Positions 1,705-31,244 of a DNA stretch of 64,000 nucleotides are shown here, piece by piece (position 1 is the first letter of the stretch; each line of letters opens with the position of its first letter). Location: NCBI GenBank assembly GCA_963843455.1, contig CAWJKE010000009.1:3691-67690 (forward strand), written 5' to 3'. Origin of the DNA: an uncultured Actinomycetota bacterium (GTDB lineage: Bacteria > Actinomycetota > Thermoleophilia > RBG-16-64-13). The notes beneath the pieces are model-generated. The model was not told the DNA's origin. It searched no databases and was given only the letters and a program-made list of their open reading frames with translations. The position numbers and the translations under genes are program-made.

Positions 1705-3987
1705 GTGGCCGAAGTGATCCAAGAGAAGAAGATCGTCTGCTGGGCCTCGCCGGGCTGCGTCCACCAGTGCGGGCTGATCGCGACGGTGGAGGACGGCAAG
1801 CTGGTCGGGCTTAGAGGCAATCCCGACTATCCCACCCCCAACCGCGGCTGCAGCGACCGCATGCCCCACCACATCAAGTGGCTCTACAGCCCGGAGCAAC
1901 TCATGCATCCGCTCAAGCGGATCGGGGAGCGCGGCGAGGACCGGTGGGAGCAGATCCCCTGGGATCAGGCGCTCGACGAGATAGCGGAAAAGCTCGCCGG
2001 CCTGAAGGCAGAGTACGGGGCCGAGACCCTCGCCCTCCACGAGGGCACCTACCGCAGCGACATGTACCCCATGCGCACCCGGTTCCTCAACCTCTTCGGC
2101 AATCCCTCGAACATCGGCTGCGCCGGCACCATCTGCCGCTGCAACACCATCGCCATGAACTACGCGCTGCTGGGCTGCGCCAACTCGCGGGCCAAAGTCC
2201 ACCAAATGGACTGCGTGGTGCTTCACGGCAACAACGTCCGGCATACGTCGCCGCTCGACTGGCAGCGCCTGCGCAAGCGGATGGAGGCCAAAGAGGTCAA
2301 GGTCATCGTCATCGATCCGCGCAAGACCGAAGCCGGCGCACCACGCGGACATGTGGCTCCAGCTCCGTCCCGGCACCGACACCGCCCTTCTGATGGCGTG
2401 GATCAACGTCATCATCGAGGAGGGGCTGTACGACAAGGCCTTCGTCGAGGAGTGGACCGTCGGCTTCGACGAGCTGCGCGCCCGGGCGGCGGAGTACACG
2501 CCCGAGCGGGTGGCCGAGATCACCTGGGTCCCGGCGGGACTCATCCGCGAATCGGCCCGCATGTACGCCACCAGCAAGCCGGCGAGCTTCCATTGGGGGT
2601 CGGCGACCGACATGTTGGGACGCAACTCCATCCGGGTGGAACAGGCTCGGATCTGCCTGAGGGCCATCACCGGCAACCTTGCTGAGGGCGGCGGAGAGAT
2701 GATCGTCGGGCCCGGGCCCATCATCGGCGGCAAGATGGGCATCCGCGACTCCATGCTCGTGTTCCCCGAGATGATCAGTCCCGAGCAGCGGAAGAAGCAG
2801 ATCGGCGCCGACCGGTTCAAGCTCATGGGGTGGCCGGGCTACGAGGCCATGGCGCAAGTATCACGAAGACACCTACGGCGTCCCCTTCCCTACGGCCGCC
2901 CACAACTTCGTGGCGGTGCAGCCTCTCATCTGGAAGGCGATCGTCGATCAGGAGCCCTACCCCGTCACGGCGATGGTCACCTGGGGGAGCAACGTCCTTC
3001 TCAACGGCGGCGACGTCAAGACCATGTACAAGGCGCTCAAGAGCCCCAACCTCAAGCTCCACGTGGTGCTCGAGCATTTCATGACCCCCACCGCGCTTCT
3101 GGCCGACTACGTGCTCCCCATCGCCAGCAAGCTCGAGAAGCCCATGTGCGCCACTCACGAGGATTTCGCGCCCAACATCGCCTGCTCGGAGGCGGCAGTG
3201 GAGCCGCTGGGCGAGCGACACGGTGACTACTTCTTCTGGAAGGGGCTGGCCGAACGTCTGGGCTTCGGCGAGTACTTCCCCTGGGAGACCGAGGAGGAGC
3301 TGGCCGATGAGCGGTTGGCGCCTCTTGGCCTGACCTTCGAGGAGGTAGCCACCGAGAAGTACTTCGTCCGGAGCGATGAGCCCTGGACGTACAAGACGAT
3401 CAACCCGCGCACCGGCAGGCCCACCGGCTTCGCCACGCCCTCGGGCAAGGTCGAGCTCTACTCCGAGGTGCTCGAGCAGCTCGGATACGACCCGCTGCCC
3501 TTCTACGAGGAGCCCCCGGAGAGCCCGGTCAGCACGCCCGAGGTGGCGGTGGAGTACCCGCTACATCCTCATCACCGGCGCAAACTTCCGGCCCATGTTC
3601 CACTCCGAGAACCGGCACTTCGGCATGGGCACCCGCGAGCAGTATCCGGACCCCATCATGGAACTGCACCCCGACGTGGCCGGTCCGCTCGGCATCGAGG
3701 AAGGCGACTGGGTCTGGGTGGAGACCCGCCGGGGGGCGATCAAGCAACGGGCTCACGTTACCGACGAGATCCATCCCCAGGTGGTCAACGTCCAGCGCCA
3801 CTGGTGGTTCCCCGAGCAGCCGGCGGCCGAGCCCTCGCTTCACGGTCTCTGGCAGTCGAACTGCAACGTGCTGACCATGGGCGACGACCCCGACACGTAT
3901 GACCCGGTGACCGGCGGCTGGCCGCTGCGGGCGCTTCTGTGTAAAGTCTACAAGGCCAAAAAAGTACTCGAGGAGGAACAAGCATGA
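1705..3987 (+). CDS. Molybdopterin (bis-MGD) oxidoreductase, acetylene-hydratase-like clade; frameshifts near 2340, 2870-2900 and 3560
   Basis: CWASPGCVHQC..C Fe-S motif, WDQALDEIAEKL, GTICRCNT (Cys ligand), LRPGTD, TPTALLADYVLP, FATPSGKVELYS, molydop-binding C-terminus; reassembled from ORFs 1402, 2351, 2910 and 3376; start (GTG 1705) uncertain. Confidence 0.85.
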
Positions 3988-5339
3988 CCGCGCCGGCACC
4001 CGACCCGATGTTCGACGGCTGGGACAATCTCGACTGGCTGGAACGCCGCGAGCGGCGCTTTGAGCGCTGGCTGAGCGCACCCGGCGTGGACTTCCAGACC
4101 GAGGCGGCCCGGCAGGCATACCGGGAGCGGGTCCAACTGTTCGTCGACGTCATCGGTCTCAAGAAGCCGGCGCGGGTGCCCGTGAACACGCTTTGCGGCT
4201 ACTTCGTCGGCCAACACAGCGGCCTTTCGAAGAAAGAGTTCATGTACGACTACGACAAGGCGGCCGCAGCGGTCAAGAAGTTCCACGACGACTTCCAGCC
4301 CGACTTTCAGACCGGCGCGGTGGCTCCGGCACGGGTCTTCGAGTTGCTGGGACTCAACCTGGTGCAGTGGCCGGGGGGCACTCTTTCCGACGAGACCCCG
4401 TGGCAGTACGTGGAGTCCGAGTACATGGGGGAAGACGAGTACGACGCGCTGATCGCCGATCCCGAGGCGTTCTTCCGGCGCACGCTGCTGCCCCGCTTCG
4501 GGTCGGCGTTCGGGTCGCTGGGGGGCCTGTCGCCCTTCACCGACATGATGGAAGCCACCACCATGCTCTTCAGCATCCTGCCGTTCGCCGACCCGGCTGT
4601 GCTGGAGGGTGTCCAGAGGCTCACGCAGGCGGCTCAGGAGTGCCTCAACTGGCTCATGACCACCGGCGCCGCCGGCGCCGACGCGGCGGGACGGCTGGGC
4701 ATCCCTCGGGCGATGGGCGGCTTCGGCAAGGCGCCGTACGACATCCTGGCCGACACGCTGCGGGGCACCAAGGGCATCATGCTCGACCGCTTCCGCCGGC
4801 CCGAGAAGATCCTTGAGGCGTCGGAGCGCCTGGTGCCGATCCTCACCGAGTGGGGCGTCCGTCAGGCCTCGAGGTCCGACGCACCCCTCATCACCTTCGT
4901 GCTGCACAAGGGTGCGGACAGCTTCATGTCGGACGCGGACTTCAAGCACTTCTACTGGCCAACGCTCAAGGCCGTCATGAAGGGGCTCATCGCCGAGGGC
5001 ATCGTCCCCTTCATGTTCGCGGAGGGCGGGTACAACAAGCGGCTCGAGGTCATCGCCGACGACGACCTGCCCACGGGGAGTGTCGTCTGGCTCTTCGACC
5101 AGACGGACATGTTCGCGGCCAAGCGGGCCTTGGGCGGCCGGGCGGCCATCGCCGGCAACGTTCCCACGGCTCTCCTGGCGCTGGCCACTCCTGCCGAGGT
5201 CGAGAAGTACGTCACCGACGTGCTGGACGGATGCGCCAAGGACGGTGGAGTCCTCCTGCAGAACGGAGCGGTGCTCGACGACGCCAAAGCCGAGAACCTC
5301 AAGGCCATGATCGAGACCGCGCGCAACTGGAAGGGCTGA
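3984..5339 (+). CDS. Uroporphyrinogen decarboxylase/MtaA-CmuA (URO-D-like) family protein
   Basis: 451 aa; PYDILADTLRG..GIM.D.FRRPE, FYWPTLK, AIAGNVP..LL..TP.EV; ATGA overlap with upstream gene. Confidence 0.8.
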   Translation: MTAPAPDPMFDGWDNLDWLERRERRFERWLSAPGVDFQTEAARQAYRERVQLFVDVIGLKKPARVPVNTLCGYFVGQHSGLSKKEFMYDYDKAAAAVKKFHDDFQPDFQTGAVAPARVFELLGLNLVQWPGGTLSDETPWQYVESEYMGEDEYDALIADPEAFFRRTLLPRFGSAFGSLGGLSPFTDMMEATTMLFSILPFADPAVLEGVQRLTQAAQECLNWLMTTGAAGADAAGRLGIPRAMGGFGKAPYDILADTLRGTKGIMLDRFRRPEKILEASERLVPILTEWGVRQASRSDAPLITFVLHKGADSFMSDADFKHFYWPTLKAVMKGLIAEGIVPFMFAEGGYNKRLEVIADDDLPTGSVVWLFDQTDMFAAKRALGGRAAIAGNVPTALLALATPAEVEKYVTDVLDGCAKDGGVLLQNGAVLDDAKAENLKAMIETARNWKG

Positions 5340-5392
5340 GCGCCGGCCGGCGGCGCCCGCTGAGCCCGGCCCCGGCGGCTGGAGGAGTGACC

Positions 5393-7431
5393 ATGTACTC
5401 GTGCAGGTACCCCCATCTGTTCAGCCCCATCCGGCTGGGGGACACGGTCTTTCGTAACCGGTATTTCGCGGCGCCGGTGGGTTACGAATACCTGTCGTCC
5501 AAGAACTACCCCCTCGACGAGACCATCGCTTTCTTCGAGCGCAAGGCGATGGGCGGCGCGGCGACGGTGAACTACGGCTCGGGAGCCCCGGACAGCCGGC
5601 GGGGCGTCATCGGGCTGAGCAACCCCTACCTGGACGACCCCACCGCTCTGCCCGCTCTCTACCGGGTGGCGTCGGCCATCAACCGGCACGGGGCGGTCGC
5701 CGCCATGGAGTTGCTCCACACCGGCGCCAACTCCTACATCTGCGCGGCCCGCGGCAACCAGATCTACGGGGCGGTCGACGGGGTGAACCCCCTGGGCCAG
5801 TTCGTCCCCGCCATGCCGGAGGAGGTCATCGAGGAGACTATCGAGGCCTTCGGCAAGGCGGCCGCCTTCGCCAAGTTCTGCGGCTTCGGGATGGTCACCG
5901 TTCACGCCGGTCACGGCTGGCTGCTCAATCAGTTCCTCGACCCCAACGTGAACGACCGGAAGGACCAGTGGGGCGGGAGCCTGGAGAACCGCTGCCGGTT
6001 CCTCCTGGCCGTCGTCGAGCGCATCAAGCGGAAATGCGGCCGGGGGTTCCCGGTCGACATCCGCATGAGCGGTTCCACCTGCTACGAGGGCGGCTACGGT
6101 ATCGACGAGGGTGTAGCCATCGCCAAGCAACTCGACGGCAAGGTCGACCTCATCCACGTCTCGGTCGGCAGCCACGAAGTGGCGGAGGTCTTCACCGTCA
6201 CCCACCCCAGCATGTTCCTGCCCGACGGGGCCAACGTGCAGTTCGCCGCCGAGATCAAGAAGCACGTCCAAACGCCCGTCGGCACGGTGGGCGCCCTCGG
6301 GGATCCGGAACTTATGGAAGAGATCATCGCCTCCGGCAAGGCCGACGTCGTTCTGGCCGCCCGGGCCATGATGGCCGATCCCGACCTGCCCAAGAAGGCC
6401 CGGGCGGGAAGACGCGACGAGATCAGGCCGTGCATCCGCTGCTTCGAATGCTTCGCCGGCATCACCACCAAGCGCCAGTATCGGTGCGCCGTGAACCCGG
6501 AGATAGGCTTCGAACAGGACGTGCGGCACGCGCTGCCGGCGACCACTCCGAAGACCGTCCTTGTGGTCGGCGGCGGAGTCGCCGGGATGCAGGCGGCCCT
6601 GACCGCGACGGAGCGCGGGCACCACGTGATCCTCTGCGAAAAGACCGGGCGGTTGGGCGGGGCGCTCCGCTGTGAGGAGCGGGTGCCCTTCAAACGGCTC
6701 CTGCGCGAGTACCTGGACTATCAGGCCAGGATGGTGGGCCGGGCTCCCATCGACGTGCGGCTGAGCACTGAAGTGACCCCCGCGCTCGCCTCCGCGGCCG
6801 AAGCGGACGTGATCATCGCCGCCCTCGGCGCTCGTCCCACCGTACCGGATATTCCCGGCGTCGCCGGCCCAAACGTTCTTGGCGCGGAGGAAGCCTATAC
6901 CGATCCGGAAAGGGTCGGGGCCGCGGCGGCGGTTCTGGGCGGCGGACTCTTGGGCATTGAACTGGCCATCTTCCTTTCGGGGCTGGGCCGGACGGTCACC
7001 ATCCTGGAGATGATGGGGACTCTCAGCGACGGGGGGAATCCGGTCCACGGCCTTGCCCTGATCAACGAGATCCGGAGGCACGCGATACAGGTGTCCACCT
7101 CCACGCGGGCCGCTGAGATCACCACGGAAGGGGTCATCGGAGAATACGTGGGAGACGCCTACACCCTTCCCCCGTGCCGCGACGGTGCAGGCCGCGGTGC
7201 TCCACTCAAACAGCTTTGGCAGGGTGGTCAGGGCCGACGCCGAGGTAGGCAGCCGGCTGCTGTTCGAAGCCGGACACGGTGATCTACGCGACCGGCCGGC
7301 AGCCCCTGCAGGCTGAGGCGGACGCCCTCGGTCTCTGCGCGCCGGAGTTCTACCAGATCGGCGACTGCTTCTCCGCGCGAAACGTGCTCGAGGCGACGCG
7401 CATGGGGTTCGCGGTCGCCCGCGATCTGTAG
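5393..7431 (+). CDS. NADH:flavin oxidoreductase (OYE + 4Fe-4S + FAD domain; BaiCD/BaiH/DCR-like), frameshifted near 7180-7250
   Basis: RBS GGAGGAG then ATG 5393; HAGHGWLLNQFL, CIRCFEC..CAVNP, VVGGGVAG, GGGLLG.E; C-terminus IGDC...A..DL stop 7431 in a shifted frame. Confidence 0.85.
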
Positions 7432-9392: not shown

Positions 9393-9407
9393 CAGGCTTC
9401 AGGATAG

Positions 9408-9443: not shown

Positions 9444-9481
9444 TAAGCATCCGGATTCGGCCATCCGCGGCCGCATGTTTC

Positions 9482-11560
9482 CTAGATAGCGTTGCCTATC
9501 TTCCAGCCGGCCGAGGTGGCGTCGGGGATGAGGCCCGGCTCGTCGCAGTCGCCGATGGAGTAGACCTCGGGCACCTTGCCCTGCAGAGAGTCCTCCAAAT
9601 CGTGGTTGCCGGCGAAGGGCAGCGCGCATACCACGCTGTCGGCCTCGAGGGTCCGCTCCTCGCCCTCTTTTGTGACGAGAGTGAGGCCTTTGCCGGTGAT
9701 CTCGACGAGCTTGACGCCGGCGAGGCGCTCGACGCGCTTCTTATCGAACCAGTAGAACAGCCGGGTCCTGCGCTCGGGATACATCATCTTACCGAGCTCT
9801 TCATCGGTATCGACGATCGTGACTTTGCGTCCCCGTTTGGTGAGGAATTCGCCCAACTGGCAACCCTGGATGGCGCCGCCGATGATGACCACGGTCTTGC
9901 CCACCGGCATCCACACGGCGGTGAGATCGCGCAGGGTCTTGGGCCCGAGCAGGCGCAGGTAGAACTGCAGAGTGCCGTAGAGGTCGCTGCTCCTGACGAC
10001 GTTCTTGCCGTAGACACCAGGCACGTCCGGCAGCGTGGGCTTGCCCCCCGCGGCGATGATCACCACGTCGGGCTTGGCCGCTTCGATGGCGGCGGCGTCG
10101 ATCTCTTTGCCCAGATGGACGTCCACGCCGTACTGCTTCACCTGCCTGCGCAGGAACCAGATGACCTCACGCACGTCCTCGACCTTGAAGCCCTTGACCA
10201 TCGCCGCCAGCGCCATGGATCCGCCGAGGTACTTGCCCTTCTCCCACAGGCTGACGTCATGACCGCGCATGGCCGCCACCCGGGCGGCCTGCATGCCGGC
10301 CGGACCGCCCCCGATGACCAGGACCTTCTTCTTGGTGTCGAGGGGGGTCAAGTCGTAGGACTCGGTGCCAAAGCACGCGTTGATGCGGCAATGCCGGGGC
10401 ACGTTGTAGGTGCTGCTGCAGTGCCCGCATTTGGTGCAGGGCTGCACTTCGAGGGCCCGGCCGGTGCGCATCTTGTTGGGATACTCGGCGTCGGCGAACA
10501 GGCGGCGGTTGAAGCCGACAAAGTCCGTCTTACCCTCGGCTATGGCCTGGTCGGCGGTGGGCACGTCGAAGCCGCAGACCGTCATGACCGGGATGTTGAC
10601 CACTTTCTTGATCTCCGCCGCCAAGGGCAGGTTGCAGCGCATGCCGTAGTGGGTCCAATCCATTTCCTTGGGGAACTCGCTCAAGGGGATGTGCGGCTCG
10701 GGGTAGAAGAGGGTGTCGCTGAGGTACGAGCCCTGGTGCATGCCCACCCAATGTGAGCGCACGTGCAAGGAATCGGCCCCGCATTGCTCCCAGATCTGGG
10801 CTAGATGTTTGTTCTCCTCCAAGCTCAGGCCCTGGTCGCCCACGCCGAACTCGAGGCCGTTTATGAACACCTGGATGGCAAAGTCCGGTCCGGTCCGCTT
10901 GCGCACGGCCTCGATGACCTCGCGGACGAAGCGGGTGCGGTTCTCCCAGTTCTGCGGCCCGTACTCGTCGTCGCGCCGGTTCCAGAAGCGCGACAGGAAG
11001 GTGTCGAACAGGTGATCGGCGCCGGTGTGGATCTCGACGCCGTCGAAGCCACAGTCGGCCAACCGCCCGGCCGCAGCCGCGTAGTGCTCCACGTACCACT
11101 GGATGTCTTCCTTGCTGAGCTGCTCCGGCGGTTCGTCCTCGTGTACGTCGAAGATGGAGGGGAATGTCACCGGGGAGGCAGCTATGCGCCTGGCGATGGT
11201 GTGATAGATGCCGCCCCAGGGGCCGCGGTGATAGAACTGCATGAAGCAGGGGGTACCGGCGGCGTGGATGGTCTTGGCCAGGTCCTCGATGTCCTTGAGG
11301 TACTTGTCGTCGTCCACCCGCAGGCGGCGGTCGCCCTCATCGGCCAGCGGCCACTCCATGGCCGGGGTCTCGACGATGATCAGGCCGATCCCTCCCTTGG
11401 CCACCGCTCCGTAGAAGGCCTTGGCAATGGGGCCGAAACGGCGCTCGCCCGAATCGAAGAGATAGGTCTGAGCCGCGGTCTTGGCCATGCGGTTCTTGAG
11501 TTGGACCTTGCCGATGCTTATCGGCGAGAATAAGTGGTCGTAGCTTGGCTGCGCCATCAC
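9482..11560 (-). CDS. NADH:flavin oxidoreductase (OYE + 4Fe-4S + FAD domain)
   Basis: LFSPISIGKVQLKNR, HTGADHL, RRDDEYG..WENRTRF, CTKCGHC..CRINA, VIGGGPAGMQAA. Confidence 0.9.
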   Translation of the reverse strand: MMAQPSYDHLFSPISIGKVQLKNRMAKTAAQTYLFDSGERRFGPIAKAFYGAVAKGGIGLIIVETPAMEWPLADEGDRRLRVDDDKYLKDIEDLAKTIHAAGTPCFMQFYHRGPWGGIYHTIARRIAASPVTFPSIFDVHEDEPPEQLSKEDIQWYVEHYAAAAGRLADCGFDGVEIHTGADHLFDTFLSRFWNRRDDEYGPQNWENRTRFVREVIEAVRKRTGPDFAIQVFINGLEFGVGDQGLSLEENKHLAQIWEQCGADSLHVRSHWVGMHQGSYLSDTLFYPEPHIPLSEFPKEMDWTHYGMRCNLPLAAEIKKVVNIPVMTVCGFDVPTADQAIAEGKTDFVGFNRRLFADAEYPNKMRTGRALEVQPCTKCGHCSSTYNVPRHCRINACFGTESYDLTPLDTKKKVLVIGGGPAGMQAARVAAMRGHDVSLWEKGKYLGGSMALAAMVKGFKVEDVREVIWFLRRQVKQYGVDVHLGKEIDAAAIEAAKPDVVIIAAGGKPTLPDVPGVYGKNVVRSSDLYGTLQFYLRLLGPKTLRDLTAVWMPVGKTVVIIGGAIQGCQLGEFLTKRGRKVTIVDTDEELGKMMYPERRTRLFYWFDKKRVERLAGVKLVEITGKGLTLVTKEGEERTLEADSVVCALPFAGNHDLEDSLQGKVPEVYSIGDCDEPGLIPDATSAGWKIGNAI

Positions 11561-11591
11561 TGCCCCCCAGGTCTTGCGTCAGTTACACGGA

Positions 11592-11623
11592 CGCCGCGGG
11601 GCGGCGAAAGCCGCCCCGCGGCG
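11592..11623 (-). terminator. 14-bp GC hairpin between the AthB-like and OYE genes
   Basis: CGCCGCGGGGCGGC-gaaa-GCCGCCCCGCGGCG; no U-tract, so it may be a stabiliser or processing hairpin. Confidence 0.5.
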
Positions 11624-11650
11624 CAAGGATCTGCCCCGCACATGGATATT

Positions 11651-12472
11651 CTACTTCAGCGGGATGTCTCCGAGGTTGATATCGAGCTCGGTGGTGTCCA
11701 GACCGGTGAATGACAGCACCTTGTCGCCGGACTTGAGCTCCAGGTCGTACACGCCGCCGTCGATCCCCTCGAACCAGAAATCGCCGTAGTTGTCGGTCTG
11801 GGTGCTGAGCAGTCTGCCGTCGGCGCTCTTGAGGGTGGCCGCCGCCCCGATGACGACCTCTTCTTCCACCGGCTCGTACAGCGTGCCGGCGATGAACTTC
11901 TTGGGCAGATTGAGGTAGTGCACCCGCGGCTTCACTTCGTCTTTCAACTCCGGCTTCCACACCTCGCTCTTGGCGATGAGTTCCTGGGCCTCGTCCTCAT
12001 CCAGGAACAGAATGGCATTGGTGGGGCAGGCGTCGGCGCAGCGAGGCTCGGCCCAACCATCGTCCAGGAGGTGGGCGCAACCTGTGCACTTCTGCGCCAG
12101 GTTGAGGTCCTCGTTGAAGAAGATCACGTCGTACGGGCAGGCGTCCACACAGAGGCGGCAACCGGTGCACTTCTGCGTGTCGATGATCACCATGCCGTCT
12201 TCACGTTTGTACAGAGCGCCTTCGACCGGGCACGCCTCGATGCAGGGGGCTTGGTCGCAGTGCATGCAGAGGTGAGGCCGGTAGGCGACTTTCACCTTGG
12301 GCACGGTACCGCGCACCCTCTCGGTGAGCTCCAGCCAGAACTGCCCGATGTCGGGCTGCGGCTTGGCGATGGGCGACCAGTCGTTGCCTACGTGCTCGTC
12401 CTTGCAGACGATCTGGCAGTTATGGCAACCGTTGCACCGGGCGATGTCGATGACGAAGACCTTCTTTGCCAT
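11651..12472 (-). CDS. Fe-S small subunit, pyrogallol hydroxytransferase beta (AthB)-like
   Basis: FVIDIARCNGCHNC..CKDEH, four 4-Cys blocks, CAHLLDDGW.EPRC, C-terminal beta domain TDNYGDFWF; similar to my recollection of Pelobacter AthB. Confidence 0.85.
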   Translation of the reverse strand: MAKKVFVIDIARCNGCHNCQIVCKDEHVGNDWSPIAKPQPDIGQFWLELTERVRGTVPKVKVAYRPHLCMHCDQAPCIEACPVEGALYKREDGMVIIDTQKCTGCRLCVDACPYDVIFFNEDLNLAQKCTGCAHLLDDGWAEPRCADACPTNAILFLDEDEAQELIAKSEVWKPELKDEVKPRVHYLNLPKKFIAGTLYEPVEEEVVIGAAATLKSADGRLLSTQTDNYGDFWFEGIDGGVYDLELKSGDKVLSFTGLDTTELDINLGDIPLK

Positions 12473-12474
12473 GA

Positions 12475-15129
12475 CTACCTCCCCTCCGTTATCCAGCTAC
12501 TGAACCGCAGTCCGGAGGCCGGGTCGTAGTCACGGGCGAAGGCTTCGGGATACTTGGCCATCCACTCTTCCATCTGCGCCATGCTGACCTTTTCCACATC
12601 GGCTAGATAGCCGCTCGTGGCCTGGCCACCGGCGTGCTTGGAGGTCAGTCCTTTGGGCGAGATCACGTTGATGGCGCCACCGCGCTCCAGAGTGAAGTTC
12701 TCGTCGATGAAGTCGGCCCGGGCTCCGTGGTCCACGGAGATGACGCCGGGCATGATGCGTTCCCACACAAGGGCGCCGCAGAGAACGCTACCGCGCTCGT
12801 TGAAGACCCGCACGATGTCGCCGTTCTTGATGCCCCGGGCCTCCGCATCGCCGGTGTGCATCCAGCAGGGCTCGTACCAGTAACCGTCCCAGCCTCTGAT
12901 CTTGCCGGTGACCGTCTCTTTGGTCCACGAGATGTCGTCGGCCTGGGCGTGGGTCCTCCAGCGGCCATGGTTCGACATGACCAGCAGCGGGTAGACCCGG
13001 GCGCGCACGCTCGAGATGCGCTCGTCGTGAGTGATGCCCTTCTCGATCCACTTCGGGATCCCCGCCCGTTCTTCGTCGTTGGGGAAGGCTTTCTCCAGGC
13101 TCTCCGACCAGAACTCCAGCTTGCCGGTGGGTGTGGGGATCGGGTTGGCCACCGGGTCTTTCCAGAAGTCATAGAGACCGGCCGGCCATTTCTCCCAGTC
13201 GGGAGCTACGGGGAGGACCGTGTACTGCTTCTCTACGAACTCCTCCCACGGTGTGACCGTGTCGAACTTCATGCCCACATAGGTGCCCTTGACGAGATCC
13301 TCGTCGGAGAAGCCCTCGGTGACCAGCTCCTTCACACCCATCTTCTCGGCCACGGCGACGACCACGTGGTAGTCGGTCCGCGCCTCACCGACCGGATCGA
13401 TGGCCCGGTTCATGAGGATGACGCTCTGGAAGCTGTCGCCCTCGCGGATGCAGGGGGAGATGTCGTCGCACTCGAGCGTCGTGGTCACGGGGAAGATGAT
13501 GTCTGCGGCCAGGACATCGTTCTCGAGCCAGGGATGCTGGGCGACCACGCACTCGATCTTCGGGTTGCGGAAGCCCTCCATGACCTCTCCGCCGCCGCCC
13601 CAGCAGGTGCACCGGCAGGGGGTGTCGGTCCACATCATGTGGATCTCCGTGCCGCCCTTTTCCTTCTCGATGGGGTACTCATAGCGCCGGTACTGGTCGG
13701 AAGTCGGTTCCTCGTGGCCGCCGGTACCCCAGAACTCCACTTTTCCGTCGCGGATGGCCTCCTCGATGAGGACCTTGGGGATCATCTGTTTGCCCCAAGC
13801 GGTCGGAGTGCCGCGGTGGGGTTTGAGCAAGCGCTCGCCGTAGGGCTGGTTGTTCAGGTTGGCGAACGGGCCCATGTGATCCGCGCCGCCGGTGATGACG
13901 TTCTTCGGCATGCCCGTGTAGGCGATCTGCGCCTGATGAACGCCCGGTTTGCCGAGGCCCTGCATGCCGAGCAGGACACACTCGAGGCGGGCGGGCTCGG
14001 TGGAGTACGGGCCGCGGGCCATGCCCCCGCCGAAGTAATGCCCGATGGTGACGATCTGCTTGGCCCAGTCGCGGGCCAGAGCCTTGATGGTCCATACCGG
14101 CACGCCGCACTTGGGCGACGCCCACTGCGGGGTCTTGGCAACGCCGTCTTCTTCACCCAGGACGTAGGCCTTCATCTTGTCGAAGCCCACCGTGTGGGTG
14201 GCGACGTATTCCTTGTCGTACGTGCCCTCGGTGATCCACTGGTACATGATGGCCAACTGGAGGGCGGCGTCGGTGTTGGGGAGGATCGGAATCCACTTGT
14301 CGGCATGGATGGCTGCGGCGTAGTTGAGGTCGGGGTTGATGTAGACCTGCTTGATGCCGATCTCGCTCCAGAAGTAGAGGAGCCGGCTGGCGAACTGTCC
14401 GCGGAAGCCCCAGGTGGTGGTCTCCGGGTCGCCGCCCCAGACCACGACCATGTCGCTGTTCTCGCAGATGTCTTTCACGATGTTGTCGTTGGGGGCCATC
14501 ATCCCGATGAAGCCCTTGCCCCACACGTGCTTGGAGCCCCAGTACCAGCCTTCCCAGCTGTCGGGGTTGCGGATCTGCTGGGTGAAGCCACCCAATTTGT
14601 CGAGGAGGAGGGTGGAGCAGCCGTGGGGCGCGTGCACCATCTTGCACTCGCCGTGTCCGTCGCCCTGCACCAGGATGGCCAGGGGTCCATAGGTGTCGCA
14701 GATGCGCTTGACCTCGTCGGCGACGTACTGCGCCGCCTCATCCCAGGAGATGCGGACGTACTTGCTCGTGCCCCGGTTCTGCGGGTTCCTGTCGCCCTTC
14801 GGGTCCCAGTCCACTCGCTTGAGAGGGTAATTGACCCGGTTAGGCGAGTAGGCCCGCTTCTTGTAGGCGAGGCTCCAGGGGGCCGGCACCGACTTGAAAT
14901 ACGGCTCCAGGGTCTTGCCGTTCTTCTCGATCTTCCAGGAGTTGAACGTCTCCGGATCGTAGGCCGAATCCCAGTGGAGCGGCCGGATGCGGATGATCTT
15001 GCCGTCCTTGACGTCCACGGCACACGGGCTGGCGCCGAAGATGCCACCGCTCAGCCCGAGCGCCTTATGGACCGTCTTGTCGGCCCCGGTCGCCTTAGCT
15101 GTGGGCGGCTTGTATTTCTCTAATGCCAT
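12475..15129 (-). CDS. Molybdopterin enzyme large subunit, pyrogallol hydroxytransferase alpha (AthL)-like
   Basis: VKDGKIIRIRP, NPDSWEGWYWG (Ser Mo ligand), TPTGKLEF, NHGRWRTHAQ; no N-terminal Fe-S motif, no Tat signal. Confidence 0.88.
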   Translation of the reverse strand: MALEKYKPPTAKATGADKTVHKALGLSGGIFGASPCAVDVKDGKIIRIRPLHWDSAYDPETFNSWKIEKNGKTLEPYFKSVPAPWSLAYKKRAYSPNRVNYPLKRVDWDPKGDRNPQNRGTSKYVRISWDEAAQYVADEVKRICDTYGPLAILVQGDGHGECKMVHAPHGCSTLLLDKLGGFTQQIRNPDSWEGWYWGSKHVWGKGFIGMMAPNDNIVKDICENSDMVVVWGGDPETTTWGFRGQFASRLLYFWSEIGIKQVYINPDLNYAAAIHADKWIPILPNTDAALQLAIMYQWITEGTYDKEYVATHTVGFDKMKAYVLGEEDGVAKTPQWASPKCGVPVWTIKALARDWAKQIVTIGHYFGGGMARGPYSTEPARLECVLLGMQGLGKPGVHQAQIAYTGMPKNVITGGADHMGPFANLNNQPYGERLLKPHRGTPTAWGKQMIPKVLIEEAIRDGKVEFWGTGGHEEPTSDQYRRYEYPIEKEKGGTEIHMMWTDTPCRCTCWGGGGEVMEGFRNPKIECVVAQHPWLENDVLAADIIFPVTTTLECDDISPCIREGDSFQSVILMNRAIDPVGEARTDYHVVVAVAEKMGVKELVTEGFSDEDLVKGTYVGMKFDTVTPWEEFVEKQYTVLPVAPDWEKWPAGLYDFWKDPVANPIPTPTGKLEFWSESLEKAFPNDEERAGIPKWIEKGITHDERISSVRARVYPLLVMSNHGRWRTHAQADDISWTKETVTGKIRGWDGYWYEPCWMHTGDAEARGIKNGDIVRVFNERGSVLCGALVWERIMPGVISVDHGARADFIDENFTLERGGAINVISPKGLTSKHAGGQATSGYLADVEKVSMAQMEEWMAKYPEAFARDYDPASGLRFSSWITEGR

Positions 15130-15259
15130 TCGGTTCGCCTCCTCATTCTCATGGACAAGTTCTTACTATACGCCAAGCAGTCTGGCGGCGAGATGCCTTC
15201 CCTCCGTGACTAGCATGTTAATGCAGGCAAAAGCTGCGGGAGCTATTCGGCCCAACATT

Positions 15260-16495
15260 TCATGGTTGGCTTGAAGTATGACCGGACCGCATGGCAGCCG
15301 GACCGCGTTCCCGGAGGAAGAGAGAAGCTACGGCGCCGGCGCCGAAAACAGCCGCGGACAGCGCATAGGACGGTGCCAAAGACGAGAAGATGTCTTCGAG
15401 GGCGCCGCCGACGTACGGCCCCAGCATCTGTCCCATGCCGACAAAGACGGTGACAAACCCGAGGGAGGCCGCGGCTAAACGGGCGCCGAAGTGGTCGCCG
15501 CACGCGGCTCCGAAGAGGGCCGGGACGCTCAGGGCGCAGATGCCGAACACAGCGGATGCAATCGCCAGCGCCGCGAGGTTGTGCCAGAGTGCAAAGACCA
15601 GAGCAACGGCCGCCTGAACGGCGAAGACGGCGGCGAGCGCCCGGCCTCTCCCTACGCTGTCCGAGAGCCGCCCCCACAAGACTCCGGAGACGCACCCTGT
15701 CACGCCGACCACCAGGAAGAGGTTCCCGGCAGTCTCGCTGCTGTACCCCAAGTCGACGGTCAGTCGCTTCTGGAAGAACGTGAAGAAGAGGAGGAAGGCG
15801 AAGCCGTAGAGGAAGTACAGGAGCCCCAGGAGCCAGGCGCGGCGCGAGCGGACGATGCTGCGCATGTCCGACCATTTCAGCTTCGCGATGACCGTGGCCC
15901 GGTCGGCGTAGGGCCGGTCGCGCTGGACGATGAAGGCGACCGCGGCGATCACCAAAGTGACGGCGGCGAAGAAGTACCAGGCGGCCCGCCACCCGTCGTC
16001 GCCCCCCGCTTCGATGATCCTCGGGACTATCGGTCCCACGACGAGAAGGGCGAACGAGGAACCGGCGGGGACTATGCCGGAGGCCGTCCCCAATCTCCTG
16101 GACTCGAACCAGGCGGCCATCAGCGCCAGAGAGGGGGCCAGGACCATCGCGTTCCCCATGCCGGTGACGAAACGCCCGGCCGAAGCCACGGCCAGACCGT
16201 CGGCAACCCCGGTGAGCAACATCCCCGCGGCGGTGATGATCAGCCCCAGGCCGGCGATGAGCCGAGGACCGAACCGGGAGGCCAGGATTCCTCCGATCAG
16301 GGCCATTATCGTGTAGCCGGCCTGGTTCCAGGAGGCCAGCGAACCGGCTTCGGCGCTCGTCAGCCCGAGGGCCTCCTGCATCGACGGCAGCACCGCGCTG
16401 TATCCAAAGCGTCCGAAGCCGATGGCCGCGAAGACCGAGACAAAGGCCATGCCCGCGACCACCCACCGATAACGGGAATCACGGGTCAGCCGCAT
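15260..16495 (-). CDS. MFS transporter (YbfB/YjiJ-like)
   Basis: 12 TM pattern, GFGRFGYSAVLPSM, GRLSDSVGR loop motif. Confidence 0.85.
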   Translation of the reverse strand: MRLTRDSRYRWVVAGMAFVSVFAAIGFGRFGYSAVLPSMQEALGLTSAEAGSLASWNQAGYTIMALIGGILASRFGPRLIAGLGLIITAAGMLLTGVADGLAVASAGRFVTGMGNAMVLAPSLALMAAWFESRRLGTASGIVPAGSSFALLVVGPIVPRIIEAGGDDGWRAAWYFFAAVTLVIAAVAFIVQRDRPYADRATVIAKLKWSDMRSIVRSRRAWLLGLLYFLYGFAFLLFFTFFQKRLTVDLGYSSETAGNLFLVVGVTGCVSGVLWGRLSDSVGRGRALAAVFAVQAAVALVFALWHNLAALAIASAVFGICALSVPALFGAACGDHFGARLAAASLGFVTVFVGMGQMLGPYVGGALEDIFSSLAPSYALSAAVFGAGAVASLFLRERGPAAMRSGHTSSQP

Positions 16496-16511
16496 GGGGT
16501 CGCCCAGGTGG

Positions 16512-17783
16512 TCAGCGCACGCCTCGCCGCTTGGGAAGTTCGGGGAGCGCGACTTCCGAATCTCCGTCGGACTCCGCCGAGCCTCGAGGGAGGAGCAGCG
16601 CGGCGCCGGCGGCTGCCACGAAGACTGCGCCAGAGAAGAAGTACGAGGGCGCCAGCGATGAGAAGGCGTCGTTCATCGCTCCGCCGATCAGCGGGCCGAT
16701 GGCTTGTCCGGCACCCACAAGGATAGTGATGAGCCCCAAAGAGGCGGAAGCGCGCTTGGGCCCGAACCGTTCGGCGCAGGCGACGCCCATGAGGCCTGGG
16801 AACGCAAGCCCCGTCGAACCGAAAAGGACTGCCGAGAGCGCCAGCACGGGTAGGCGGATTCCGGTCCCGAACAGGAAGCCGCCGATACCGGCGAGGAACA
16901 GGGTGAGGGCGAGAGTGCGCTCCCGGCCAAAACGGTCCGATGCCGATCCCCAGATCATCCCGCCGGCCAGGCCGGCGATCCCTACGAGCATGAAGAGGTA
17001 GCCGGCGGTCTGGGTGCTGTATCCCAGGTCTGTCGTAAGGCGCTTCTGGAAGAAGGTGAAGTAGAGCAGGAACGCGACGCCGTAGAGCAGGTAGACGGCG
17101 CCCAAGTGCCAGGCGTATCCGGAACGGATGACGCCTCCCAGGTGAAAGGAGGGTGGGCTGAGCTGGGCCCGGATGGCCGGAGGTGCCCACTTGTCGATGA
17201 CTATCTCGTCGCTCTCGACGATGGGCTTTGCCGGCCGGTCGCGTTGGATGATCGCGCTGAACGCGGCGAGCAAGATCGTGACTCCGGCGAAGAAGAACCA
17301 GGCGAGCCGCCATCCCTCGGCTCCGCCCGCGTGCAGGATGGGCGGCACCGCCAGGCCGACAACGACCAGAGCGAGCGACGAACCGGTCGGTACGACGGCC
17401 GAAGCAAGGCCCAGGCGATGGGTCTTGAACCACGCGGCCATGAGGCTGATGGACGGGACCAGTACCAGCCCGTTCCCCATCCCTGTCAGCAGCCGCGCGG
17501 CGGACGCTCCCGCGAGTGTGTTCGACAGGCCCGTGATGAGCATCCCCGCCGCGGTGACCACTACGCCCAGCGTGATCACTCTACGTGGTCCCCACCGGGA
17601 AGCAAGCACTCCGCCCACGGCCGACATGACGGTGTAGCCGACCAGGTTCCAGGATGCCAACGATCCTGCCGCCGCACTGCTGATGTTCAGGCCTTTCTGC
17701 ATGGAGGGCAGCACGGCGCTATAGCCGAAGCGGCCGAATCCCAGGGCTCCGAAAACACCCATGAACGCCATGCCGAGGACCAC
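16512..17783 (-). CDS. MFS transporter (YbfB/YjiJ-like), paralog of the adjacent gene
   Basis: GFGRFGYSAVLPSMQ, GSASDRFGR; start codon uncertain. Confidence 0.85.
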   Translation of the reverse strand: MVLGMAFMGVFGALGFGRFGYSAVLPSMQKGLNISSAAAGSLASWNLVGYTVMSAVGGVLASRWGPRRVITLGVVVTAAGMLITGLSNTLAGASAARLLTGMGNGLVLVPSISLMAAWFKTHRLGLASAVVPTGSSLALVVVGLAVPPILHAGGAEGWRLAWFFFAGVTILLAAFSAIIQRDRPAKPIVESDEIVIDKWAPPAIRAQLSPPSFHLGGVIRSGYAWHLGAVYLLYGVAFLLYFTFFQKRLTTDLGYSTQTAGYLFMLVGIAGLAGGMIWGSASDRFGRERTLALTLFLAGIGGFLFGTGIRLPVLALSAVLFGSTGLAFPGLMGVACAERFGPKRASASLGLITILVGAGQAIGPLIGGAMNDAFSSLAPSYFFSGAVFVAAAGAALLLPRGSAESDGDSEVALPELPKRRGVR

Positions 17784-17833: not shown

Positions 17834-18598
17834 TCAGATGTTCATGCCGCCGTCCGCCATGAAGACGCTCCCGGTAGAGAAACTGCTCGCGTCGGAGGCC
17901 AGGAACAGCACCATCCGGGCCACCTCCGACGCTCGGCCGTGCCTGCCGAGAGGGATGATTCCGTTGAGGAATTCCGTCCCATTCTGGCCGACGATCTCGG
18001 TGAGCCGCTCCTCTATCTGAGTCTGGAACTCGTTCTCAATGGGGCCGGGAGCAAAGACGTTCACCCGTATATTCCGCGGCGCCGCTTCTTTTGCGACTAC
18101 CCGCGCCAGCCCGATGAGCGCGTGCTTCGACGTCGCGTAGGCGCAGACGCCCGGGTCGGCCCTGGTGCCCATGATGCTCGAGGTGATGATGATGCTGCCG
18201 CCGTCGTTCATGAGCGGCAGTCCATACTTGCATGCGAGGAAAGAGCCCCTGATATTCGTCGCGATGACAGCGTCGAACACGTCCTCCGGGTACTCGGTGA
18301 CCGGCTTGATGACGCCGGAGATGCCGGCATGGCTGAAGATGACGTCGATGTTGCCCCAGTTCGCGACCGCCCGGTCGAGATACTTGCGGGTTTCCGCTGC
18401 GTCGGCGACGTCGGCCGAGATGCTATCGAGCACATCTGCCCCGGCGTTCAGTGACGCGGCCGCCCAGGCCAACTTCTCCGAGCTCCGACCAACAAGCAGC
18501 ACCCGCGCCCCCTCTTCCAGGAGCGCCTGCGCGGCCGCCAGGCCGATGCTGCCTCCGCCGCCGGTGACGACACAGACCTTTCCCTTCATGATGCCCAT
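17834..18598 (-). CDS. Short-chain dehydrogenase/reductase
   Basis: TGGGGSIG, YATSK, RVNVFAPG, FLASD; RBS GAAGGAGG before ATG 18598. Confidence 0.9.
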   Translation of the reverse strand: MGIMKGKVCVVTGGGGSIGLAAAQALLEEGARVLLVGRSSEKLAWAAASLNAGADVLDSISADVADAAETRKYLDRAVANWGNIDVIFSHAGISGVIKPVTEYPEDVFDAVIATNIRGSFLACKYGLPLMNDGGSIIITSSIMGTRADPGVCAYATSKHALIGLARVVAKEAAPRNIRVNVFAPGPIENEFQTQIEERLTEIVGQNGTEFLNGIIPLGRHGRASEVARMVLFLASDASSFSTGSVFMADGGMNI

Positions 18599-18726
18599 GC
18601 GTCCTCCTTCAGTTCCCGTACTTGCCCCCGGTCCTTCGCATGCGGCCATGATACAGCCCTTAACTTGCCGGAGACCCCTCAGAGAGCCGGCGCGGCAGCC
18701 GGGTGCGGCTGTGTTACATTCGACTG

Positions 18727-19323
18727 ATGAAGCCAAGACGTTGCGCCTGGGTGGGCACCGACCCCCTCTATGTCGCGTATCACGACGAGGAATGGGGGGT
18801 GCCGGTGCACGACGACCGGCTGCTCTTTGAATTCCTCGTGCTCGAAGGCGCTCAGGCGGGGCTGAGTTGGCTCACTATCCTCCGCAAACGGGAGGGCTAC
18901 CGACGTGCATTCGCGGGTTTCGACCCGGCCGTCGTCGCCGCCTTCGGCCCCGCGGATATCGAGCGTTTGCTCGCCGATGCCGGCATAGTCCGCAATCGTC
19001 TCAAGATAGGGTCGGCCGTCGCCAACGCCCAGGCCTTTCTGCAGGTGCAGGCGGAGTTCGGGAGTTTCGACGCCTACGTTTGGGGATTCGTGGATGGCTC
19101 GACTCTCCACAACGAGTGGCGCACCATGGCCGAGATCCCTGCGAAGACTGCCGAGGCCGAGCGCATGAGCAGTGACCTCAAAAAGCGGGGATTCCGGTTC
19201 GTCGGTCCCACCATCTGCTATGCGCACATGCAAGCCACCGGCATGGTGAACGATCATACCGTCGACTGCTTTCGATACCAGGAATTGAGGCCCGGCCACC
19301 TGCTTCAAGGAGGAGATCGATGA
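18727..19323 (+). CDS. tag: DNA-3-methyladenine glycosylase I
   Basis: [46 protein letters not shown]. Confidence 0.95.
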
Positions 19324-30755: not shown

Positions 30756-30756
30756 T

Positions 30757-31239: not shown

Positions 31240-31244
31240 GCGGC

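What the first reader, a model, noticed from the sequence alone, without database searches (positions are those of the whole stretch)
11651..15129. Transhydroxylase-like pair with a changed pocket and a fourth Fe-S cluster
The large subunit keeps NPDSW (Asp/Ser ligand/Trp) and apparently His144, but the substrate-binding Tyr152/Arg153 region reads HAPH (alignment from memory of Pelobacter AthL). The small subunit has 16 Cys in four complete blocks, whereas Pelobacter AthB binds only three clusters. An intact electron wire implies net redox chemistry, such as a hydroxylase or dehydroxylase, rather than hydroxyl transfer.
Basis: partly seen in the sequence, partly recalled or inferred. Interest (0 to 1): 0.65.

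Follow-up and report, generated by a model that had tools for sequence, protein, structure and literature searches.

The report
Redox-wired relative of pyrogallol transhydroxylase
This gene pair encodes a molybdenum enzyme related to pyrogallol transhydroxylase that has lost that enzyme's signature pocket residues but kept a full four-cluster electron wire, and it belongs to a large, uncharacterised clade of wetland and sediment bacteria that is routinely mislabelled as transhydroxylase.

Summary
The two minus-strand genes 12475-15129 (alpha, 884 aa) and 11651-12472 (beta, 273 aa) match Pelobacter transhydroxylase end to end (E 2.5e-123 and 6e-56). Alpha is about 36% identical.

Alpha keeps His159, Asp190, Ser191 and Trp192 (AthL His144, Asp174, Ser175, Trp176). 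It lacks residues that are invariant in 14 true transhydroxylase-type sequences: His145, Trp147, Tyr152 and Tyr404 (Tyr560 is kept in 13 of 14).

Beta has exactly 16 Cys in four blocks. BthL lacks the four Cys of the distal cluster.

This holds for the whole clade. In 85 related loci, this alpha type pairs with a 16-Cys beta in 48 of 51 pairs. The AthL type pairs with a 12-Cys beta in 10 of 10.

The fourth cluster is therefore an ancestral feature that was retained, not one that was gained.

More than 591 related stretches were found among the reference genomes; all 78 loci examined are from uncultured MAGs. No characterised member was found.

Best reading: a cytoplasmic, redox-coupled aryl (de)hydroxylase acting on a phenolic acid, probably in the reductive direction. 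Substrate and direction are inferred, not shown. I could not place the resorcinol and 3,5-dihydroxybenzoate hydroxylases. Interest is moderate.

The parts
12475..15129 (-). Alpha subunit (884 aa): a bis-MGD molybdoenzyme of the transhydroxylase superfamily, called 'clade B' here. It has no Tat signal and no N-terminal Fe4S4 domain, so it is predicted to be cytoplasmic.
   Evidence: It is 36% identical to AthL and 51-92% identical to the 88 other clade-B sequences in related loci.
11651..12472 (-). Beta subunit (273 aa): a four-block, 16-Cys ferredoxin domain followed by a C-terminal beta-barrel domain, as in BthL.
   Evidence: It starts 2 nt after the alpha stop codon.
14554..14568 (-). NPDSW (residues 188-192): Asp190, the predicted Mo ligand Ser191, and Trp192. 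These correspond to AthL Asp174, Ser175 and Trp176.
   Evidence: Invariant in the 15-sequence clade-B alignment.
14641..14661 (-). DGHGECK (residues 157-163), the clade-B signature loop. His159 corresponds to AthL His144. AthL His145 and Trp147 are replaced by Gly160 and Cys162.
   Evidence: An HGExK version is shared with exported relatives.
14623..14634 (-). HAPH (residues 166-169). Ala167 and Pro168 stand where AthL has Tyr152 and Arg153.
   Evidence: Across clade B the motif reads (H/N)(A/T/S)PH.
14008..14040 (-). HYFGGGMARGP (residues 364-374). This replaces AthL's LGGWGGACRAS, so Trp354 is lost while Arg372 (AthL Arg359) is kept.
12946..12975 (-). SNHGRWRTHA (residues 719-728), a clade-B signature. 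AthL types have SPHPRFS(M/F)HT here.
12404..12436 (-). Beta Cys block I, CNGCHNCQIVC.
12230..12268 (-). Beta Cys block II, CMHCDQAPCIEAC. The 4th Cys (Cys81) is absent from BthL.
12137..12169 (-). Beta Cys block III, CTGCRLCVDAC. The first three Cys are absent from BthL. Together with Cys81 they would bind the distal cluster (FS4 in NarH numbering).
   Evidence: The assignment to FS4 is by analogy with NarH and rests on established knowledge.
12026..12088 (-). Beta Cys block IV, CTGCAHLLDDGWAEPRCADAC.
11654..11905 (-). Beta C-terminal beta-barrel domain (CarboxypepD_reg-like). It aligns with the third domain of BthL.
9482..11560 (-). OYE-type Fe-S flavoenzyme (692 aa) 90 nt downstream of beta. 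It carries FMN and FAD/NAD(P)H domains and a CxxCxxC(x9)C motif. It is a candidate pathway partner, either as a ring or ene reductase or as an electron feeder.
   Evidence: (best solved relative is 2-naphthoyl-CoA reductase 6qkg, E 1.9e-64). A 71% orthologue lies beside an 82% alpha in L004.
15260..17783 (-). Two tandem MFS transporters of the organic-anion type, upstream on the same strand.
   Evidence: An MFS (72%) lies in the same place in Gaiellales locus L007.
17834..18736 (-). Short-chain dehydrogenase/reductase at the head of the same-strand gene run.
   Evidence: An 86% orthologue is in the same position in L007. An SDR occurs in 14 of 85 related loci.
3984..7282 (+). A URO-D family protein (3984-5339) and a second OYE-type Fe-S flavoenzyme (5336-7282). 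They are possibly part of the same catabolic island.
   Evidence: The same set of families flanks the 82% alpha in L004/L005.

Best explanation
The pair encodes a soluble, cytoplasmic alpha-beta molybdoenzyme (bis-MGD, Ser-ligated Mo). It belongs to a distinct, widespread clade of the transhydroxylase superfamily.

Alpha keeps the Mo-proximal machinery of transhydroxylase: Ser191 as the Mo ligand and His159 and Asp190 as the proton relay. A phenolic hydroxyl therefore probably still binds to Mo, and an oxygen atom is added to or removed from an aromatic carbon.

The residues invariant in true transhydroxylases, which from memory of the structure paper line the phenol-binding sites, are replaced or deleted. 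These are His145, Trp147, Tyr152, Tyr404 and Tyr560. Hydroxyl exchange between two phenols is therefore unlikely.

Instead, the two electrons of each turnover would pass along four [4Fe-4S] clusters in beta (FS1 to FS4) to or from an external partner.

I favour the reductive direction: dehydroxylation of a polyhydroxylated aromatic acid taken up by the adjacent anion-type MFS transporters. Electrons would come from ferredoxin or from the neighbouring NAD(P)H Fe-S flavoenzyme. The SDR and OYE reductases would then act on the product.

Shown: homology, the residue pattern, the Cys pattern, clade-wide conservation and gene context. Inferred: Mo and cluster content, net redox chemistry, direction, substrate class and electron partner.
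For: - Full-length homology of both subunits to 4v4c, including the AhtL N-terminal domain and beta's third domain.
- His159, Asp190, Ser191, Trp192 and Arg372 are conserved and invariant in the clade-B alignment.
- AthL-type invariants H145, W147, Y152 and Y404 (14/14) and Y560 (13/14) are absent.
- All 16 Cys are present. Clade-B alphas pair with 16-Cys betas in 48 of 51 pairs (the other three have 15). AthL-type alphas pair with 12-Cys betas in 10 of 10.
- Cluster decay goes further in proteobacterial AthL-type betas. Clusters are thus lost where they are not needed and kept in this clade.
- There is no Tat motif and no membrane-anchor gene.
- Exported relatives with the HGExK motif have 16-Cys betas, a 4-TM protein and an FMN_bind protein. 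That is a respiratory-reductase-like layout.
- Neighbours are anion-type MFS, TRAP DctPQM (13 loci), IclR, SDR (14 loci), OYE Fe-S flavoenzymes, and Chalcone_N and URO-D in L004 and L071.
- Related sequence occurs in wetland, sediment and soil metagenomes.
- Thermodynamics, my own estimate from formation energies recalled from memory: the phenol/benzene couple lies near -90 mV. NAD(P)H or ferredoxin can therefore drive dehydroxylation, but hydroxylation could not reduce them.
Against: - No biochemical data exist for any member of the clade.
- The direction of electron flow is not encoded in the sequence.
- The known TH-like net hydroxylases (RhLS, DbhLS) run oxidatively, and I could not obtain their sequences to place them.
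- The gene neighbourhood is poorly conserved beyond the alpha-beta pair. The OYE partner is adjacent in only 3 or 4 of 85 loci.
- One close relative (L004, 82%) has no beta gene next to alpha.
- The window's organism has a Nuo complex, so a quinone-linked oxidative role is possible.
- The residue roles in AthL are recalled, not re-read.
- The AlphaFold model failed (pLDDT 49), so pocket geometry was not examined.
Confidence: 0.45

Rival explanations
1. It is an anaerobic aromatic hydroxylase working oxidatively, like resorcinol hydroxylase (RhLS) or 3,5-dihydroxybenzoate hydroxylase (DbhLS). Water-derived oxygen is inserted into a phenolic ring at Mo. The electrons leave through FS1 to FS4 to an acceptor that ends in the respiratory chain.
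For: It has the same family and the same intact wire. From established knowledge, the only characterised TH relatives with net redox chemistry are hydroxylases (cited). The window encodes a Nuo complex, so a quinone pool exists. A clade-A pair sits beside a clade-B pair in about a dozen loci. A hydroxylase could therefore make the tetrahydroxybenzene cosubstrate that transhydroxylase needs.
Against: There is no membrane anchor, cytochrome or other high-potential acceptor gene nearby. Most hosts are strict anaerobes such as Dehalococcoidia, Desulfobacterota and Clostridia. The neighbours are NAD(P)H-type reductases. By my estimate, hydroxylation cannot reduce NAD+ or ferredoxin.
Confidence: 0.25
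2. It is a true transhydroxylase for a different phenol pair, for example one step of the sequential hydroxyhydroquinone-to-phloroglucinol transhydroxylations. The four clusters would serve only to poise or re-activate the Mo centre.
For: It lies side by side with AthL-type pairs in Desulfospira and other loci, and tandem paralogues are common. This fits isoenzymes of one pathway. His, Asp and Ser are retained. Metagenome papers annotate such genes as transhydroxylase.
Against: All AthL-type invariants other than the Mo-proximal ones are lost. The 9-residue loop carrying Tyr560 is deleted. The distal cluster is under strong conservation, although the AthL lineage lost it and some of its members lost more.
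Confidence: 0.12
3. It is a reductase for a non-phenolic oxygen-atom donor, such as an S-oxide, N-oxide or oxyanion. This would resemble the DorA/TorA/BisC enzymes, which are its next-nearest relatives.
For: The best NCBIfam hits are bisC_fam, DmsA and TorA, all far below their cut-offs. Sources name relatives 'TMAO reductase' or 'S/N-oxide reductase-like'.
Against: Those names are automatic. The score against AthL is much higher (416 bits against 254 for DMSO reductase). The DorA Tyr114 and Trp116 positions read His and Cys. The TH-specific N-terminal domain and the beta third domain are present. The context is organic-acid transport and aromatic-type catabolism.
Confidence: 0.08

Closest known systems
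Pyrogallol-phloroglucinol transhydroxylase AthL/BthL of Pelobacter acidigallici (PDB 4v4c, EC 1.97.1.2)
   Same: The two-subunit architecture is the same, and both subunits are collinear over their full length. Shared features are the AhtL-like N-terminal domain, the NPDSW motif with the Ser ligand, His144 and Asp174 equivalents, Arg359, beta's third beta-barrel domain, a cytoplasmic location and the absence of FS0.
   Different: Alpha is only about 36% identical. His145, Trp147, Tyr152, Trp354, Tyr404 and Tyr560 are replaced or deleted. Beta has 16 Cys, not 12, and so has the distal fourth cluster. In a rough NJ tree the two fall in separate lineages.
Resorcinol hydroxylase RhLS (RehLS) of Aromatoleum anaerobium and 3,5-dihydroxybenzoate hydroxylase DbhLS of Thauera aromatica AR-1
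   Same: These are TH-like alpha-beta molybdoenzymes that carry out net two-electron chemistry on a phenol (literature cited). They are the functional analogy for a redox-coupled TH relative, and DbhLS acts on a phenolic acid.
   Different: Their sequences and the papers that describe them were not obtainable here. Clade membership, pocket residues and cluster count could therefore not be compared. They come from nitrate-reducing Betaproteobacteria and are membrane-associated. None of the 78 nearest genome loci is betaproteobacterial.
Four-cluster ferredoxin subunits of complex iron-sulfur molybdoenzymes (PsrB/NrfC 2vpw_B, ArrB 6cz7_B, DmsB, TtrB)
   Same: All have 16 Cys in four CxxCxxCxxxC-type blocks. 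These are beta's next-best solved and NCBIfam matches.
   Different: They lack the TH-type C-terminal beta-barrel domain. They work in Tat-exported, membrane-anchored complexes whose alpha subunit carries FS0.
Gut actinobacterial catechol dehydroxylases (Dadh, Cldh, Hcdh and others)
   Same: These are bis-MGD enzymes that reductively remove an aromatic hydroxyl group from polyphenols. They are the mechanistic analogy for the favoured reductive direction.
   Different: They belong to a different lineage, related to acetylene hydratase. From memory, they are Tat-exported, carry an FS0 domain and have membrane partners. The window alpha has no Fe4S4 domain and matches acetylene hydratase only weakly (E 4.5e-15).

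Membership tests
DMSO reductase (Mo/W-bisPGD, MopB) superfamily | Molybdopterin and Molydop_binding domains | tested here: met
   PF00384 at 90.7 bits and PF01568 at 63.1 bits, both above their cut-offs.
DMSO reductase superfamily, Ser-ligand branch | A Ser at the Mo-ligand position | tested here: met
   Ser191 aligns with AthL Ser175 in NPDSW. It is invariant in the clade.
Transhydroxylase superfamily (AthL/RhL-like) | AhtL-like N-terminal domain and end-to-end similarity of alpha to AthL | tested here: met
   PF21423 at 36.1 bits against a cut-off of 27. 4v4c_A gives E 2.5e-123 over residues 34-848.
Transhydroxylase superfamily (AthL/RhL-like) | A beta subunit made of a ferredoxin part plus a C-terminal beta-barrel domain | tested here: met
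   4v4c_B aligns over residues 5-267, and there is a CarboxypepD_reg-like hit at residues 194-246.
Pyrogallol-phloroglucinol transhydroxylase sensu stricto (AthL type, 'clade A') | Catalytic His144, Asp174 and Tyr404 | tested here: not met
   His159 and Asp190 are present. Tyr404, which is 14/14 in AthL types, has no counterpart.
Pyrogallol-phloroglucinol transhydroxylase sensu stricto (AthL type, 'clade A') | The other clade-A invariants: His145, Trp147, Tyr152 and Tyr560 | tested here: not met
   They read Gly160, Cys162 and Ala167, and the Tyr560 loop is deleted.
Pyrogallol-phloroglucinol transhydroxylase sensu stricto (AthL type, 'clade A') | A three-cluster beta with 12 Cys and no distal cluster | tested here: not met
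   The window beta has 16 Cys. AthL-type alphas pair with 12-Cys betas in 10 of 10 pairs.
Pyrogallol-phloroglucinol transhydroxylase sensu stricto (AthL type, 'clade A') | Pyrogallol-to-phloroglucinol conversion without external electrons | not testable with these tools
   This needs an enzyme assay.
RhLS/DbhLS anaerobic phenol hydroxylases | Sequence relatedness closer than to AthL, with shared pocket residues | not testable with these tools
   No sequence or paper was obtainable.
RhLS/DbhLS anaerobic phenol hydroxylases | An electron path from Mo to an external partner | tested here: inconclusive
   All ligands for four clusters are present and conserved. No partner was identified.
Four-cluster ferredoxin subunits (DmsB/PsrB/NrfC type) | Four complete Cys blocks | tested here: met
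   Cys at 13, 16, 19, 23 / 69, 72, 77, 81 / 102, 105, 108, 112 / 129, 132, 145, 149.
Catechol dehydroxylases (acetylene-hydratase-related) | An N-terminal Fe4S4 (FS0) domain with a Tat signal, and closest similarity to acetylene hydratase | tested here: not met
   There is no Molybdop_Fe4S4 hit and no RR motif. 2e7z gives only E 4.5e-15 over 66 residues.

The most novel reading that the evidence does not exclude
The clade-B alpha-beta pairs form a widespread, unrecognised class of cytoplasmic aryl dehydroxylases driven by ferredoxin or NAD(P)H. Alternatively, they are the missing enzymes that make or recycle the tetrahydroxybenzene cosubstrate of the transhydroxylases next to them. Either way, they would funnel polyhydroxylated phenolic acids into reducible resorcinol- or phloroglucinol-type rings in anoxic wetlands and sediments. 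Genome surveys have been counting them wrongly as pyrogallol transhydroxylases.
Probability: 0.3. Interest if true: 0.7.

Novelty: new variant of a known kind. Interest (0 to 1): 0.5.

Why it matters
Polyphenol turnover without oxygen is central to carbon storage in peat and wetlands (the 'enzyme latch' debate). Few of the enzymes involved are known.

It occurs in Thermoleophilia, Dehalococcoidia, Desulfobacterota, Clostridia and Acidobacteriota. Some genomes carry tandem arrays of paralogues.

Metagenome studies read such genes as evidence for pyrogallol fermentation. The residue and cluster patterns found here argue that this annotation is wrong for this clade, and that a different, redox-coupled reaction is at work.

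The contrast between a lineage that keeps four clusters and lineages that lose one or two also gives a natural experiment on what the Fe-S clusters of transhydroxylase are for. That question has been open since the structure was solved.

Tried and rejected
- **Structure prediction.** AlphaFold2 of alpha with a 15-sequence alignment gave pLDDT 49. The model was unusable, so no fold search was run and pocket geometry was not analysed.
- **Transhydroxylase structure paper.** PMC511022 was not held.
- **RhLS and DbhLS.** The papers PMC1913315 and PMC4579451 were not held. Text searches for the gene names gave only noise. The supplement of the MopB review has no sequences. Cluster look-ups of ten family representatives gave no informative names.
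- **SDR as phloroglucinol reductase.** Rejected as untestable. Only generic SDR matches were found, and no phloroglucinol-pathway genes were seen in the window.
- **Promoters and terminators.** The scan was uninformative.
- **Expression.** One sediment metatranscriptome has a few short contigs at mostly under 90% identity over conserved parts of alpha and beta. This is too weak to claim that this locus is expressed.
- **Plasmid search.** It found only AthL-type and TorA-type relatives at 34% identity or less.
No supporting context was found.
- **Second molybdoenzyme in the window.** The ORFs at 1402-3902 are not a paralogue of alpha. They are DmsA/PhsA-like and carry an FS0 domain.

Full report
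**What is there**

The finding covers two tightly coupled minus-strand genes. One runs from 12475 to 15129 (alpha, 884 aa). The other runs from 11651 to 12472 (beta, 273 aa) and starts 2 nt after the alpha stop codon.

Alpha carries the Pfam domains AhtL-like_1st, Molybdopterin and Molydop_binding. Beta carries a Fer4_11 four-cluster ferredoxin domain and a weak CarboxypepD_reg-like C-terminal domain.

No NCBIfam model reaches its cut-off. The best hits are bisC, DmsA and TorA for alpha, and TtrB, ArrB and DmsB for beta.

Against all solved structures, both subunits hit Pelobacter acidigallici pyrogallol hydroxytransferase first and over their full length. Alpha matches 4v4c_A at E 2.5e-123 (416 bits, against 254 bits for DMSO reductase). 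Beta matches 4v4c_B at E 6e-56.

Alpha has no twin-arginine motif and no N-terminal Fe4S4 domain. The enzyme is therefore predicted to be cytoplasmic, like transhydroxylase.

**Checking the observation**

The chain numbering in the HMMER alignment equals the published AthL numbering. On that basis:
- His144 corresponds to His159.
- Tyr152 and Arg153 correspond to Ala167 and Pro168, which lie within HAPH (residues 166-169).
- Asp174, Ser175 and Trp176 correspond to Asp190, Ser191 and Trp192, which lie within NPDSW.

Three MAFFT alignments with different sequence sets agree. They add that Trp354 is lost, Arg359 is kept as Arg372, and Tyr404 and Tyr560 lie in a rebuilt segment and a 9-residue deletion.

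Beta has exactly 16 Cys, in four blocks. BthL lacks the fourth Cys of block II and the first three Cys of block III. By analogy with NarH, whose cluster ligation is established, those four Cys bind FS4, the cluster farthest from Mo.

I could not re-read the structure paper, so the catalytic roles of the AthL residues rest on memory.

**This is a clade, not an oddity**

The protein search found more than 6,400 relatives. The best 120 are 62-91% identical and come from Thermoleophilia, Clostridia, Deltaproteobacteria and Chloroflexota MAGs. Their names are generic or automatic.

All 78 distinct loci kept are from MAGs:
- The nearest are Gaiellales, at 92%. Locus L007 is syntenic with the window through SDR, MFS, adenine glycosylase and phosphoketolase.
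- Next come uncultured Actinomycetes, Dehalococcoidia, Desulfobacterota, Clostridia and Korobacteraceae.

Related sequence occurs in wetland, sediment and soil metagenomes.

In 85 loci I found two sharply separated alpha types.

- **Clade A** contains AthL, relatives about 50-60% identical to it, and Ensifer and Burkholderia megaplasmid genes. In 14 sequences, His144, His145, Trp147, Tyr152, Asp174, Ser175, Trp176, Arg359 and Tyr404 are invariant. Tyr560 is kept in 13 of 14. Arg153 is not conserved (K, Y, R or W).
- **Clade B** contains the window protein and 88 others, 51-92% identical to it and 34-42% identical to AthL. Its own signatures are DGHGECK, (H/N)(A/T/S)PHG, HYF(G/A)G, SNH(G/P)RWRxH and DHGARxD.

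The beta type follows the alpha type without exception. Clade-B alphas have a 16-Cys beta in 48 of 51 detected pairs. The other three have 15 Cys; in two of these the missing residue is the second Cys of block III, the pattern of a [3Fe-4S] cluster. Clade-A alphas have a 12-Cys beta in 10 of 10 pairs.

**Direction of evolution**

Beta's nearest non-TH relatives (PsrB/NrfC, ArrB, DmsB, TtrB) are all four-cluster proteins. Exported bacterial relatives of clade B also have 16 Cys.

The AthL lineage lost the distal cluster. Proteobacterial clade-A betas have additionally lost Cys I-4, IV-1 and IV-2, which leaves at most two clusters and a broken chain. An archaeal exported lineage lost the distal cluster independently.

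The fourth cluster of the window protein is therefore retained, not acquired. Its retention across phyla, against this background of repeated loss, argues that it is used.

**Wider family**

At 50% clustering the library holds 632 representatives with E no higher than 1e-30.

Full-length representatives at 40-48% identity mostly carry Tat signals with long Thr-rich linkers and share an HGExK version of the clade-B loop. One such locus adds a 4-TM protein and an FMN_bind protein downstream. Another adds a NarJ/TorD-type chaperone. These are respiratory-reductase-like layouts.

A rough NJ tree rooted on TorA-like sequences puts clade B inside this HGExK group and puts clade A on a separate branch.

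**Context**

In the window, the same-strand run reads as follows:
- SDR (17834-18736)
- two organic-anion-type MFS transporters (15260-17783)
- alpha, then beta
- an OYE-type Fe-S flavoenzyme (9482-11560), 90 nt downstream of beta

The flavoenzyme's best solved relative is the dearomatising 2-naphthoyl-CoA reductase (E 1.9e-64). It has the CxxCxxC...C cluster motif and FAD/NAD(P)H domains. A second such flavoenzyme and a URO-D family gene lie upstream on the other strand.

The same families surround an 82% alpha in L004/L005: two OYE flavoenzymes (one 71% identical to the window's), URO-D and an SDR, together with a bacterial chalcone-isomerase-like gene. No beta gene is adjacent there.

Across all 85 loci only alpha-beta is constant. 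Recurrent neighbours are:
- TRAP DctPQM transporters (13 loci)
- SDRs (14 loci)
- IclR regulators (11 loci)
- MFS transporters, Fe-ADH, thiolase, and FAD/CCG oxidoreductases
- a clade-A pair (about a dozen loci)
- tandem clade-B paralogues

TRAP and anion-type MFS transporters point to carboxylated substrates. The rest points to phenolic-acid or polyphenol catabolism.

**How it most likely works**

The Mo-proximal residues shared with transhydroxylase are intact. These are the Ser ligand and the His and Asp positions. The basic chemistry is therefore probably the same as a transhydroxylase half-reaction: a phenol bound to Mo through oxygen, with an oxygen atom transferred to or from a ring carbon.

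The residues that distinguish true transhydroxylases are gone. From memory of the structure paper, they form the substrate and cosubstrate sites. The electron chain that transhydroxylase has let decay is complete. I therefore read the enzyme as running one half-reaction, with the two electrons exchanged through FS1 to FS4.

For direction I favour reduction (dehydroxylation), for four reasons:
- The enzyme is soluble and cytoplasmic, with no anchor or high-potential partner nearby.
- Most hosts are strict anaerobes.
- The neighbours are NAD(P)H-type reductases.
- From formation energies recalled from memory, I estimate the aryl-OH/aryl-H couple at about -90 mV. NAD(P)H or ferredoxin could drive dehydroxylation, while hydroxylation could not reduce them.

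This is inference. The oxidative reading remains a serious rival, especially because the window encodes a Nuo complex and the only characterised net-redox relatives, RhLS and DbhLS, are hydroxylases. A transhydroxylase for another phenol pair and a non-phenolic O-atom reductase are less likely.

**Comparison with the known, and novelty**

The pair belongs to the transhydroxylase superfamily. It fails three tested defining features of transhydroxylase proper: Tyr404, the other clade-A invariants, and the three-cluster beta.

TH-like enzymes with net redox chemistry are already known in principle (RhLS, DbhLS). I could not obtain their sequences or papers, so whether they belong to this clade is open.

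I found no paper that characterises a clade-B member. Papers that mention such genes call them transhydroxylases.

I rate the finding a new variant of a known kind. It is of moderate interest as a single locus. It is of more interest as a clade, because the clade is abundant in anoxic carbon-rich habitats and appears to be systematically mis-annotated.

Noticed in passing
window 1402-2685 (+) and 2910-3902 (+); also 694-1320 (+): Two ORFs in different frames together look like one DmsA/PhsA-like molybdoenzyme of about 830 aa with an N-terminal Fe4S4 domain. This is either a frameshifted pseudogene or an assembly indel. Just upstream, an ORF holds only the C-terminal third of an aldehyde:ferredoxin oxidoreductase.
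   Followed up: partly
window 24020-25639 (-): A single 539-aa ORF fuses a GntR DNA-binding domain, an FCD ligand domain and a Cof-type HAD hydrolase.
   Followed up: no
L085 7563-11428 (Ensifer canadensis pT173c); L086 7563-11424 (Burkholderia stagnalis plasmid): AthL-type alpha subunits of about 995 aa carry an N-terminal extension of about 140 aa. Their beta subunits have lost seven of the 16 Cys, so only two clusters are possible and the chain is broken. They are flanked by VOC dioxygenases, a fumarylacetoacetate hydrolase and an acyl-CoA synthetase in aerobes.
   Followed up: partly
L004 5712-16711 (and the near-identical L005): A clade-B alpha (82% identical) has no beta gene beside it. 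It sits in a cluster with two OYE Fe-S flavoenzymes, a bacterial chalcone-isomerase-like gene, FMN_red, URO-D and an SDR, which looks like flavonoid catabolism.
   Followed up: partly
L002 (= L010) 4861-22643; L064: Desulfospira MAGs carry three or four TH-like pairs (one AthL-type and two clade-B subtypes) within about 22 kb, interleaved with TRAP transporters and an AsnC-type regulator.
   Followed up: partly
L090 1387-5004 (archaeal contig with a TFIIB gene); L088 2871-7920: These are Tat-exported relatives of clade B. The archaeal one has a beta that independently lost the distal cluster. The bacterial one has a 16-Cys beta followed by a 4-TM protein and an FMN_bind protein.
   Followed up: partly
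window 26918-37134 (+): A complex I (Nuo) gene run and a TatC gene (25707-26510) lie about 10 kb from the locus. The organism therefore has a respiratory chain and Tat export, even though this enzyme is not exported.
   Followed up: no
window 12096-15018, run X22: A sediment metatranscriptome holds a few short contigs over conserved parts of alpha and beta, all but one under 90% identical. This hints that relatives are transcribed in situ but is too weak to count as evidence.
   Followed up: partly
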